Below are positions 39,495-39,617 of a stretch of 64,000 bases of DNA, in pieces. Every line of letters begins with the position of its first letter. The stretch's first letter is position 1. The DNA comes from a virus. The stretch lies in IMG/VR virus record IMGVR_UViG_3300023174_006147, positions 20,475-84,474 of that record. One strand, given 5' to 3'. Position numbers and translations under genes: made by a program. The notes beneath the pieces are model-generated. The model was not told where the DNA came from, ran no database searches, and worked only from the letters and a program-made list of their open reading frames with translations.

Positions 39495-39617
39495 ACAGGA
39501 TATACATTTTTTCGTTGCTCTACCAGACTGAGCTACTTCCCCATAGGTGGCGGGGAAGGCAGGATTTGAACCTACGACCAACGGCTTGACATGCTAAAAT
39601 AATGCTGTAGATATCCT
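39495..39617 (-). ncRNA. Family-A RNA carrying a circularly permuted tRNA-Asp(GTC)
   Basis: 3' half precedes 5' half inside the AGGATAT/ATATCCT stem. Confidence 0.85.

What the first reader, a model, noticed from the sequence alone, without database searches (positions are those of the whole stretch)
39495..39617. Second permuted tRNA, Asp(GTC), with the same break point
Seen: 3' half GC-ATGTCAA-GCCGT-TGGTC-GTAGG-TTCAAAT-CCTGC-CTTCCCC-GCCA, a 5-nt linker CCTAT, then 5' half GGGGAAG-TA-GCTC-AGTCTGGTA-GAGC-A-ACG. The rejoined stem ACGGC/GCCGT is perfect, and G73 matches Asp identity. The 29/30 break, 5-nt linker and A32-U33 loop start are shared with the Phe copy despite a different sequence, which argues for selection on the architecture. 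A third, degenerate copy (35972-36108) has a Leu-type body, loop ATGATAA and no CCA.
Basis: seen in the sequence. Interest (0 to 1): 0.85.

Follow-up and report, generated by a model that had tools for sequence, protein, structure and literature searches.

The report
Phage Y-RNA-like permuted tRNA mimic
The "permuted tRNA-Asp" is real as a sequence, but it is most likely a tRNA-shaped partner RNA (a YrlA-type Y RNA) of the phage's Ro60-like protein and not a gene that is rejoined into a working tRNA; it is unusual in carrying an encoded CCA end and an anticodon-like loop.

Summary

It is probably not a permuted tRNA-Asp gene.
- Rfam's YrlA model matches its core (43.8 bits, below the family cut-off).
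- A covariance model built only from RNAs beside Ro60-like (DUF2828) genes of 17 other phage contigs matches it end to end (99.4 bits, E 6e-17).
- The window encodes such a protein (17725-19143). Its predicted fold matches Ro60 structures.
- The flanking "handle" (7-bp helix, NNN, CNGCA) lies within 1.5 kb upstream of that gene in 70 of 72 related contigs.

Homologs keep the architecture but not the "anticodon", the discriminator-CCA or the break point. A normal tRNA-Asp(GTC) lies about 200 nt away.

Five of 30 distinct family members with this topology carry N-CCA plus a linker, more than chance. This suggests RNase P processing into a two-piece, CCA-ended mimic, as shown for M. smegmatis YrlA.

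Verdict: a new variant of a known kind. Earlier notes of this scan describe the same RNA-protein pairing on other DNA (502 notes).

The parts
39611..39617 (-). Handle helix, 5' strand AGGATAT (preceded by TTT)
   Evidence: Pairs with ATATCCT at 39497-39503. This helix covaries across the family (6 of 7 pairs change on both sides, 99% paired).
39603..39607 (-). CAGCA motif, 3 nt after the helix (the conserved CNGCA of the handle)
   Evidence: C, G, C and A are invariant in alignments A2 and A3. The signature occurs 287 times on the Ro-like strand and 8 times on the opposite strand in 1.1 Mb of Ro-like loci.
39586..39594 (-). GC + ATGTCAA: 2-bp mini-hairpin and 7-nt anticodon-like loop (T33, A37, A38; triplet GTC)
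   Evidence: The hairpin appears in the RNAfold minimum-energy structure but not in the centroid. Homologs have 2- to 6-bp stems with 7-nt loops of the form YT-NNN-AA and varying triplets.
39576..39585 (-). GCCGT (3' strand of the anticodon-like or closing stem) + variable region TGGTC
   Evidence: CGT(T) pairs with (A)ACG at 39513-39516. Rfam's YrlA alignment uses CGUU/AACG as the closing stem.
39559..39575 (-). T arm GTAGG-TTCAAAT-CCTGC
   Evidence: Identical to the T arm of the homolog in Klebsiella phage FBKp34.
39543..39558 (-). Acceptor 3' strand CTTCCCC, G73, CCA, linker CCTAT
   Evidence: N-CCA at this place occurs in 5 of 30 distinct family members with this topology (binomial P 1e-4). 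A variant contig has the linker as CTTAT with CCA kept.
39517..39542 (-). Acceptor 5' strand GGGGAAG, TA, D arm GCTC-AGTCTGGTA-GAGC
39497..39516 (-). A-ACG closing strand, A-rich spacer AAAAAATGT, handle helix 3' strand ATATCCT (followed by GTTT)
   Evidence: A metagenome contig from another context matches only 39493-39616, which marks the unit's limits.
17725..19143 (-). Ro60-like protein gene (DUF2828 + DUF7788), 472 aa, the presumed protein partner
   Evidence: Pfam. AlphaFold model with pLDDT 76. Foldseek top 11 hits are all Ro60/TROVE structures, E 3e-7 to 3e-5. Mycobacteriophage homologs are annotated 'Ro-like RNA binding protein'.
34155..34278 (-). Paralog c1 (the 'Phe copy'): same architecture, A73-CCA-ACTGC, loop ATGAAAA
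   Evidence: R1 91.4 bits; Rfam YrlA 35.2 bits.
35974..36107 (-). Paralog c3: same topology, long variable arm, no CCA, loop ATGATAA
   Evidence: R1 57 bits.

Best explanation
The element is a YrlA-type Y-RNA-like non-coding RNA of about 121 nt, on the minus strand at 39497-39617. It is a tRNA mimic in circularly permuted order whose free ends form a 'handle': a 7-bp helix, 3 nt, then CNGCA.

Inferred mechanism:
1. It is transcribed with the phage's tRNA array and cut out of the transcript.
2. The handle is bound by the phage's Ro60-like ring protein (DUF2828, 17725-19143), giving a Ro/Y-RNA-type particle.
3. The tRNA-shaped body is exposed to tRNA-recognising enzymes.
4. In this copy and in c1, host RNase P probably cuts 5' of G1 (between 39543 and 39542), because the 7-bp acceptor helix is followed by N73-CCA and a 5-nt linker.
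5. The linker is then trimmed back to CCA. This leaves a two-piece RNA held together by the acceptor, closing and handle helices, as shown experimentally for M. smegmatis YrlA.

By analogy with bacterial Rsr/Y RNA/PNPase and with Thermus phage phiLo Ro60, the particle would gate the Ro-like ring or tether it to host RNA-processing enzymes during infection. That would fit the tRNA-repair and tRNA-maintenance setting of the neighbourhood.

Shown here by computation: family membership, structure, covariation and linkage to the Ro-like gene. Inferred and not shown: binding, processing and biological role.
For: 1. Rfam YrlA (RF02553) matches 39511-39583 at 43.8 bits, E 1.3e-8, over the tRNA-like module. 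A tandem His-Phe tRNA pair in the same window scores only 24.3 bits.
2. Model R1 was built only from 17 RNAs next to Ro-like genes on other phage contigs. It matches c2 over its full length at 99.4 bits, E 6e-17. c1 scores 91.4 and c3 scores 57. Tandem tRNAs score 21 or less.
3. The DUF2828/DUF7788 protein in the window folds like Ro60. Foldseek top hits are 9kop, 9l5y, 2nvo and 1yvr, probability 1.00.
4. In 80 related contigs, all 128 R1 hits lie on the Ro-like gene's strand. The handle signature occurs 287 times on that strand and 8 times on the other. It ends within 1.5 kb upstream of the gene in 70 of 72 loci.
5. Covariation: 98% of cells are paired, against 31-46% for slid controls. 18 of 20 pairs change on both sides.
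6. The YrlA region of mycobacteriophage Douge, a phage group in which YrlA RNAs were described (PMC4201824), matches R1 at 69.5 bits and has the same handle, UGGACCC-CCA-CAGCA.
7. A metagenome contig carries only the c2 unit (39493-39616, 3 differences and 1 gap) between unrelated flanks. Another contig lacks the neighbouring 204 nt but keeps c2.
8. Precedent: M. smegmatis YrlA has a 7-bp acceptor stem, is cut by RNase P and receives CCA in vivo (PMC4201824). Phage phiLo Ro60 binds two upstream Y-like RNAs and host PNPase (PMC12135203).
Against: - c2 lies about 20 kb from the Ro-like gene, not within the 4 kb used to define YrlA.
- It scores below Rfam's gathering cut-off (43.8 against 69) and lacks the GNCGAAN0-1G motif of bacterial YrlA.
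- No binding, expression or processing data exist for this phage.
- The fold energy of c2 alone is not exceptional (z -1.79).
- Part of the pairing statistics is circular. The training set was picked by a scanner that required perfect stems, although 10 or more later hits were not picked that way.
- The anticodon-like loop and the encoded CCA are not explained by the classical Y-RNA gate and tether model.
Confidence: 0.85

Rival explanations
1. True permuted tRNA gene. The transcript is circularised or its ends are ligated at 29/30, the linker is removed by RNase P and 3' trimming, and a normal 76-nt tRNA-Asp(GUC) results that decodes GAY codons.
For: The rejoined sequence would give a perfect cloverleaf with ACGGC/GCCGT, U33, A37, G73 and CCA. 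A second copy, c1, shows the same 29/30 split and 5-nt linker. N-CCA is enriched in the family.
Against: - No bulge-helix-bulge at the junction. The flanks form a 7-bp helix with a large asymmetric loop.
- Bacteria are not known to have the tRNA splicing endonuclease that the known permuted-tRNA pathway needs. This rests on established knowledge, not on a test here.
- A canonical tRNA-Asp(GTC) and tRNA-Phe(GAA) sit in the same array.
- Most homologs have sealed 3-7 nt acceptor loops without CCA, and their triplets and break points vary.
- The halves are not closest to the phage's tRNA-Asp.
- The conserved handle is unexplained by this model but is linked to Ro-like genes.
Confidence: 0.03
2. 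Two-piece tRNA used as a tRNA. After RNase P cleavage, the two halves stay paired without ligation. The RNA is aminoacylated and enters translation, or it serves as an amino-acid donor, independently of the Ro-like protein.
For: A 7-bp acceptor plus 5-bp T stem, N73-CCA, an anticodon-like loop and all four arms are present. M. smegmatis YrlA gains CCA after cleavage, and its authors raise possible aminoacylation. T is at position -1 in 4 of the 5 CCA-class members.
Against: - The handle helix and about 35 extra nucleotides would project from the anticodon stem, where the ribosome contacts tRNA (inference).
- The anticodon-like hairpin of c2 has only 2 bp in cis.
- The triplet is not conserved between close homologs, for example CTGTAAA against CTGAAAA in L182 and L205.
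- The strict linkage of the handle to Ro-like genes argues for a ribonucleoprotein role.
Confidence: 0.06
3. Evolutionary debris. The element is a remnant of a tandem tRNA duplication, made of the 3' half of one copy and the 5' half of the next, with no function of its own.
For: The phage's tRNA genes encode CCA and are closely spaced. Tandem tRNAs are known false positives for YrlA searches (PMC4201824). My generic pattern search recovered many such tandems.
Against: - The flanks contain no remaining tRNA halves. They contain the conserved handle.
- The two acceptor strands are perfectly complementary.
- The R1 score is far above that of tandem tRNAs (99 against 21 or less).
- The unit is conserved as a discrete module in another genomic context.
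- The family shows covariation.
Confidence: 0.03
4. The handle is an RNA-processing or transcription signal of phage tRNA operons, for example an RNase site. Its nearness to DUF2828 genes would arise only because those genes sit beside tRNA arrays.
For: The units are embedded in tRNA arrays, here and in Felix-O1-like phage Silverhawkium. The flanks TTTAGG and CCTGTT are conserved.
Against: - In mycobacteriophage Douge, the handle RNA lies about 100 nt from the Ro-like gene and no tRNA is annotated in the 6.4-kb stretch examined.
- In N4-like BUCT194, matches lie a few hundred nt from the DUF2828 gene and no tRNA is annotated in the 889-nt stretch examined.
- 152 modules end within 500 nt upstream of the gene.
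- A handle hairpin also sits in the Ro-like gene's own 5' leader.
Confidence: 0.03

Closest known systems
YrlA (Y RNA-like A; Rfam RF02553), partner of bacterial and mycobacteriophage Ro60/Rsr (Chen et al. 2014, PMC4201824)
   Same: Order T arm, closed acceptor-like stem-loop, D arm. The ends pair into a stem that carries the protein-binding site. It is encoded on the same strand as a Ro60-type gene. M. smegmatis YrlA also has a 7-bp acceptor stem, is cut by RNase P and ends in CCA. The mycobacteriophage Douge RNA matches my family model and has the same handle.
   Different: - Only the tRNA-like core matches the Rfam model (43.8 bits, cut-off 69).
- It has a CNGCA handle where bacterial YrlA has GNCGAAN0-1G.
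- N73-CCA and a 5-nt linker are encoded in the gene, not added after cleavage.
- An anticodon-like 7-nt loop is present.
- It lies 20 kb from the Ro-like gene, inside the tRNA array, as one of at least 8 handle-bearing RNAs.
Permuted tRNA genes of Cyanidioschyzon merolae, some green algae and Thermofilum pendens (from my own knowledge of the literature; reviewed in PMC3400036 and PMC4238349, which I listed but did not read)
   Same: The 3' half lies upstream of the 5' half in one transcript, with a short linker between the CCA side and the 5' end.
   Different: Those genes rely on a bulge-helix-bulge motif, the splicing endonuclease and a ligase to make a circular intermediate, and they supply tRNAs that the genome otherwise lacks. 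Here there is no such motif, a canonical tRNA-Asp is present, and homologs mostly have sealed acceptor loops.
Thermus phage phiLo Ro60 with Yrl1 and Yrl2 (PMC12135203; PDB 9KOP, 9L5Y)
   Same: A phage-encoded Ro60-fold ring protein with Y-like RNAs encoded beside it. 9KOP and 9L5Y are the best structural matches to the window's protein.
   Different: The phiLo RNAs were identified by a CGAA motif in a bulged stem, and in the passages I read they are not described as tRNA mimics. Protein sequence identity in the structural alignment is about 16%.
Vibrio phage KVP40 'tRNA-Pseudo-4' and 'tRNA-Pseudo-5' (AY283928.2)
   Same: The same building blocks: tRNA body, A-rich spacer, short helix and CTGCA motif. 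blastn links c2 to this locus.
   Different: KVP40 has the opposite permutation. The acceptor ends are open, and the handle helix is closed by a loop and sits in place of the anticodon loop. The window has such 'inside-out' units too (37793-37987, 39627-39721).

Membership tests
YrlA-type Y RNA | tRNA-like domain in the order T arm, acceptor-like stem-loop, D arm, closed by a stem | tested here: met
   Rfam RF02553 aligns model positions 23-87 to 39511-39583, 43.8 bits, E 1.3e-8. My scanner also finds it.
YrlA-type Y RNA | Score at or above Rfam's gathering cut-off (69 bits) over the whole model | tested here: not met
   43.8 bits, and only the core is matched. The Ro-binding ends of the model are not matched.
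YrlA-type Y RNA | GNCGAAN0-1G motif near the 5' end (proposed Rsr contact) | tested here: not met
   The motif is absent from 39586-39625. A conserved helix-NNN-CAGCA stands there instead.
YrlA-type Y RNA | Encoded within about 4 kb of a Ro60 ortholog, on the same strand | tested here: inconclusive
   Same strand, but 20 kb from the Ro-like gene in this window. Family members in 70 of 72 related contigs end within 1.5 kb upstream of it. Handle RNAs without the full tRNA body lie 260-330 nt upstream of the gene in the window.
YrlA-type Y RNA | Bound by the Ro60/Rsr protein | not testable with these tools
   Needs a gel-shift or pull-down experiment.
Ro60/TROVE protein (for the partner gene 17725-19143) | Ring of HEAT-like repeats followed by a vWA domain | tested here: met
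   AlphaFold model with pLDDT 76 and pTM 0.71. Foldseek top 11 hits are all Ro60/TROVE, probability 1.00, TM 0.38-0.55, aligned over about 500 columns.
Ro60/TROVE protein (for the partner gene 17725-19143) | Match to Pfam TROVE (PF05731) | tested here: not met
   No TROVE hit in the 84-kb record. The protein matches DUF2828 (PF11443) and DUF7788 (PF25043) instead. phmmer against PDB sequences finds nothing.
Permuted tRNA gene | 3' half upstream of 5' half, and together they give a complete cloverleaf | tested here: met
Permuted tRNA gene | Bulge-helix-bulge motif formed by leader and trailer at the junction to be ligated | tested here: not met
   Leader and trailer form a 7-bp helix separated from the closing stem by about 26 nt on one side and 9 nt on the other. 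There are no 3-nt bulges flanking a 4-bp helix.
Permuted tRNA gene | Supplies an isoacceptor that the genome otherwise lacks; the anticodon is conserved in orthologs | tested here: not met
   Canonical tRNA-Asp(GTC) at 39825-39901 and tRNA-Phe(GAA) at 42185-42264. Loop triplets differ among homologs.
Permuted tRNA gene | Splicing endonuclease and ligase available; joined RNA detectable | not testable with these tools
   The host is unknown and the phage record is 22% complete. No RtcB was found in the 84 kb held. No RNA run is listed.

The most novel reading that the evidence does not exclude
c1, c2 and the three other N-CCA members form a distinct subclass of Ro-associated RNAs. RNase P opens them into two-piece, CCA-ended, complete tRNA look-alikes with all four arms, including an anticodon-like loop with U33 and A37. 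Docked on the Ro-like ring, they would be charged or bound by tRNA-handling factors. They could then act as decoys or sensors for host tRNA-targeting defences such as anticodon nucleases, or recruit repair enzymes to damaged tRNAs.
Probability: 0.15. Interest if true: 0.8.

Novelty: new variant of a known kind. Interest (0 to 1): 0.5.

Why it matters
- **Annotation.** These RNAs are not called as tRNAs, or are miscalled as tRNA-SeC, pseudo-tRNA or 'tRNA-TERM'. They could be mistaken for permuted tRNA genes, which are so far described only in eukaryotes and archaea.
- **Scope of the protein family.** The DUF2828-type Ro-like protein occurs in 711 of 50,697 deposited phage records. Family-model or handle-motif matches lie near it in all five distant cultured phage lineages examined (Klebsiella FBKp34, N4-like BUCT194, KVP40, Felix-O1-like Silverhawkium, mycobacteriophage Douge), and the handle lies upstream of it in 70 of 72 related uncultured contigs. 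The RNA family is not captured by Rfam at its thresholds.
- **Function of the tRNA-like domain.** The subclass with encoded CCA and an anticodon-like arm gives a concrete way to test what the tRNA-like domain of bacterial and phage Y RNAs is for. That question has been open since 2014.

Tried and rejected
- **Generic scan for the arrangement.** I scanned IMG/VR for T loop, 11 nt, CCA, 10-16 nt, TAGCTCAG. L075 and L089, which passed my scanner, are tandem tRNAs with similar acceptor stems.
- **Orthologous array regions.** Searching with the neighbouring TilS-like protein gave only 30%-identical loci.
- **RNA evidence.** No RNA holder was listed for this stretch, so nothing can be said on expression, ends or junctions. 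The runs laid were DNA contigs only.
- **Other searches that found nothing.** Pfam TROVE and RtcB were not found in the 84-kb record, which is about 22% of the genome. phmmer against PDB sequences found nothing. Rfam YrlA gave no hit at E 0.01 or below in two complete relatives, which shows the Rfam model's limited reach for this family.
- **Origin from the phage's own tRNAs.** I tested whether c1 and c2 derive from the phage's tRNA-Phe and tRNA-Asp. Their halves align best to other tRNAs (Gly, Ile, Pro), so the idea is rejected.
- **Thermodynamics.** The c2 unit alone folds at z -1.79, which is not significant by itself.
- **Rejected readings.** A permuted tmRNA (RF04321, 12.4 bits, E 2.1). 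A permuted group I intron arrangement, which I considered early: the flanks are short, and no Rfam intron family matched.

Full report
**Observation**

The window carries a minus-strand array of 41 ARAGORN tRNAs between 19.9 and 43.6 kb. It belongs to an 84-kb IMG/VR viral contig estimated at 22% complete. Relatives of its Ro-like protein lie on contigs of 350-367 kb.

- GC, ATGTCAA, GCCGT, TGGTC
- T arm GTAGG-TTCAAAT-CCTGC
- CTTCCCC, G, CCA
- CCTAT
- GGGGAAG, TA
- D arm GCTC-AGTCTGGTA-GAGC
- A, ACG

ARAGORN does not call it. A scanner for a T arm, then a closed 7-bp acceptor hairpin, then a D arm finds two places in the window, this one and the 'Phe copy' at 34155-34278. It finds a mean of 0.06 in shuffled windows. 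The third copy at 35974-36107 is also as described.

The unit is bounded by a 7-bp helix, AGGATAT with ATATCCT. The 5' strand is followed after 3 nt by CAGCA. The unit is preceded by TTT and followed by GTTT.

The same 'handle' bounds the other two copies (AGAGTGT/ACACTCT and GGGATGC/GCATCCC). It also bounds at least four more minus-strand elements with other contents:
- 19404-19466
- 34038-34138
- 36452-36538
- 38750-38805

Model R1 additionally picks up a weaker element at about 19270-19390 (28.1 bits).

**Identification**

An Rfam scan at E-value thresholds matches YrlA (Y RNA-like, RF02553) at 39511-39583. The score is 43.8 bits, E 1.3e-8, over model positions 23-87, which are the tRNA-like module. 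The Phe copy scores 35.2 bits. A real tandem tRNA pair (His-Phe) scores only 24.3 bits.

YrlA RNAs were defined by Chen et al. 2014 (PMC4201824). They are partners of bacterial and phage Ro60/Rsr and contain a tRNA-like domain in exactly this order: T arm, an 'acceptor' stem-loop, D arm. The RNA ends pair into the protein-binding stem. The same paper shows three relevant things:
- M. smegmatis YrlA has a 7-bp acceptor stem.
- It is cut by RNase P and receives CCA in vivo.
- Tandem tRNAs are false positives for such searches.

**The protein partner**

The window encodes a 472-aa DUF2828 + DUF7788 protein at 17725-19143, on the same strand. Pfam TROVE does not match anywhere in the record, and a sequence search of the PDB finds nothing.

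An AlphaFold model built from 26 homologs (pLDDT 76, pTM 0.71) gives Ro60/TROVE structures as its top 11 Foldseek hits, all at probability 1.00 and E 3e-7 to 3e-5. They include:
- Thermus phage phiLo Ro60 (9KOP, 9L5Y)
- D. radiodurans Rsr (2NVO)
- Xenopus and human Ro60

tblastn finds the protein in 711 phage records. Mycobacteriophage homologs at about 33% identity are annotated 'Ro-like RNA binding protein'.

**Linkage of RNA and protein in other phages**

blastn with the c2 region hit Klebsiella phage FBKp34 and the N4-like Vibrio phage BUCT194 a few hundred nucleotides from their DUF2828 genes. It also hit KVP40's 'tRNA-Pseudo-4/5'.

I fetched 80 IMG/VR loci that encode relatives of the Ro-like protein at 64-90% identity. 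My scanner found permuted tRNA-like modules just upstream of the gene in many of them, all with the same handle.

I then built covariance model R1 from 17 such RNAs, none from this window. Its results:
- In the window: c2 at 99.4 bits (E 6e-17, full length including the flanks), c1 at 91.4, c3 at 57. The simpler handle RNAs score 28-41, and tandem tRNAs score 21 or less.
- Across the 80 loci: all 128 hits at E 1e-3 or below lie on the strand of the Ro-like gene.

A purely sequence-based handle signature gives the same picture:
- It occurs 287 times on the Ro-like strand and 8 times on the other.
- It ends within 1.5 kb upstream of the gene in 70 of 72 loci that have enough upstream sequence.

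On the 45 best hits (38 distinct sequences), 98% of cells pair, against 31-46% when partners are slid. 18 of 20 pairs show changes on both sides.

A caveat applies. The 17 training sequences were chosen by a scanner that required perfect stems, and the alignment is fitted to the model. About ten high-scoring hits (L186b, L209, L200, L205a, L205b, L175, L157, L179, L207) were not chosen that way, and they show the same pairs.

The mycobacteriophage Douge RNA next to its Ro-like gene matches R1 at 69.5 bits and Rfam YrlA at 32.4 bits. It has the handle UGGACCC-CCA-CAGCA. So this family includes a YrlA-type RNA from the mycobacteriophage group in which phage YrlA RNAs were first reported.

**Independence of the unit**

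DNA contigs from public freshwater metagenomes show c2 as a discrete module.
- One 624-nt contig matches only 39493-39616, with three differences and one gap, between flanks unrelated to the window. One listed difference turns the linker CCTAT into CTTAT, and the gap shortens the A run. CCA and the loop are unchanged.
- Another contig lacks 39621-39824, which holds the neighbouring tRNA-like element, but keeps c2 intact.

**Test of the tRNA-Asp reading**

All three fail.

- **Loop.** c2's nearest relatives (L153, L155, L168, L187) share GC-N7-GCCGT...AACG but have CTTGTAA where c2 has ATGTCAA. L182 and L205 differ only in the middle of the triplet (CTGTAAA against CTGAAAA). Others have ATTCAAA, CTTATAA or no hairpin at all.
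- **Break point.** Several RNAs have a fully closed 5-6 bp anticodon-like hairpin, so the break is at 26/27 (L164, L161, L182, L186b). c1, c2 and some others split the 5' strand 2+3.
- **Discriminator and CCA.** 25 of the 30 distinct YrlA-topology modules have sealed acceptor loops, mostly 3-7 nt, without CCA.

Other evidence points the same way. c1 and c2 are not most similar to the phage's tRNA-Phe and tRNA-Asp. c2's variable region and T arm are identical to those of the FBKp34 RNA. Canonical tRNA-Asp(GTC) and tRNA-Phe(GAA) genes lie in the same array. The leader and trailer form no bulge-helix-bulge. I therefore put the permuted-tRNA-gene reading at about 3%.

**What remains unusual**

Two features are not part of the published YrlA description.

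First, roughly a third of the family carries an anticodon-arm look-alike, with a 7-nt loop that has T at the U33 place and A at 37-38. In those members the tRNA mimic is a complete, circularly permuted cloverleaf.

Second, 5 of 30 distinct modules carry N-CCA immediately after the acceptor 3' strand: c1, c2, L149, L162b and L175.
- Only 0.47 are expected by chance. Binomial P is 1e-4, or 0.009 if counted as three lineages among 28.
- These five have linkers of 5 to about 90 nt where the others have tight loops.
- All five start the 5' strand with GGG.
- Four have T at position -1.

This is what a bacterial RNase P substrate looks like. Together with the M. smegmatis precedent, it suggests that this subclass is opened into a two-piece RNA with a genuine CCA end. 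This is inference. Whether such an RNA is charged, or what it does, cannot be told from sequence.

**Mechanism proposed**

Each step below is marked as shown or inferred.
1. The RNA folds as handle helix, internal loop, closing stem and permuted tRNA body. Shown by covariation.
2. The handle is the binding site of the Ro-like ring. Inferred from linkage and from Ro60/Y RNA biology. A handle hairpin also lies in the Ro-like gene's own leader at 19158-19209, next to its ribosome-binding site.
3. RNase P and 3' trimming open the acceptor loop of c1 and c2. Inferred.
4. The particle modulates or tethers the Ro-like protein to host RNA enzymes, as in Rsr/Y RNA/PNPase and in phiLo Ro60/Yrl/PNPase (PMC12135203). 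Inferred.

The neighbourhood has a tRNA and RNA-repair theme. It includes:
- PTH2
- a HAD domain of 'Swiss Army Knife' RNA-repair proteins
- a zeta-toxin/AAA_33-type kinase
- ADP-ribosylglycohydrolase
- a TilS-like PP-loop enzyme

**Novelty**

Y RNAs of the YrlA type, phage Ro60 homologs and phage Y-like RNAs are all published. This element is best filed as a new variant of that kind for four reasons:
- The handle differs from the motif defined for bacterial YrlA.
- Rfam's threshold is not met.
- N-CCA plus a linker is encoded in the gene.
- It has an anticodon-like arm and lies dispersed in a tRNA array.

Earlier notes of this scan describe the same protein-RNA pairing on many other genomes and on this genome. 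I reached the reading before consulting them, and I tested the claims about this genome myself.

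Noticed in passing
34038-34138 and 36452-36538 (minus): The two ARAGORN 'tRNA-SeC(tca)' calls (34046-34117, 36458-36528) lie inside handle-bounded units. The first has D arm, anticodon arm and T arm in normal order; the second has a simple hairpin in place of the D arm. Neither has a proper acceptor stem or CCA, and their loops are TTTCAAC and CTTCAAC. They look like Y-like RNAs in the Yrn1-type topology and not like suppressor tRNAs. R1 scores are 36.6 and 31.7 bits.
   Followed up: partly
37793-37987 and 39627-39721 (minus): Three 'inside-out' units: tRNA-like RNAs with open acceptor ends and CCA. 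The anticodon arm is replaced by a short helix closed by a loop containing GTCCA. In the two units at 37793-37987 the helix is followed by NNN-CNGCA; this motif is missing at 39627-39721. This is the arrangement of KVP40 tRNA-Pseudo-4/5. A metagenome variant lacks 39621-39824 altogether.
   Followed up: partly
19158-19260 (minus): A strong sigma-70-type promoter (TTGACG, 17 nt, TATAAT) lies upstream of the Ro-like gene. It is followed by a handle-type hairpin (AGGTTAA-AAA-CAGCA...TTAACCT) that ends a few nucleotides before the gene's ribosome-binding site. This is a candidate for autoregulation by the Ro-like protein.
   Followed up: no
19404-19466, about 19270-19390, 38750-38805 (minus): Three further handle-type RNAs without a full tRNA body. 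One has only a T-arm-like hairpin and matches the handle only loosely. The 38749-38804 element also gives a weak Rfam hit to Dictyostelium Class I RNA (28.8 bits, cut-off 41.5, E 0.29).
   Followed up: partly
19475-19870, 29309-30666, 33278-34033, 35170-35820: Genes with a tRNA or RNA-repair theme around the array: PTH2 peptidyl-tRNA hydrolase, a HAD domain of 'Swiss Army Knife' RNA-repair proteins, ADP-ribosylglycohydrolase, a zeta-toxin/AAA_33-type kinase, and a TilS-like PP-loop ATPase next to a tRNA(CAT).
   Followed up: partly
L220:4851-4984 (Shigella phage Silverhawkium, MK562505.1): A Felix-O1-like phage has an unannotated family member (R1 53 bits) inside its tRNA array, about 1 kb from its DUF2828 gene. 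It has an anticodon-like hairpin TTTCT-CTGGTAA-AGAAA. Rfam's tRNA model scores part of it at 35.5 bits, above its cut-off.
   Followed up: partly
L002 (Vibrio phage BUCT194, MZ447858.1), minus strand of locus 300-620: A nested arrangement: the 3' half of one tRNA-like body (CTTCCCC-G-CCA), then a complete second unit, then the matching 5' half (GGGGAAG). The 'linker' of the outer permuted mimic is therefore another whole unit.
   Followed up: no
28527-29192 (minus) and 40063-40977 (plus): GIY-YIG/NUMOD3 and HNH/zinc-finger endonuclease-like genes are interspersed in the tRNA array. They are probably homing endonucleases, and they fit the module-by-module insertions and deletions seen in metagenome variants.
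   Followed up: no
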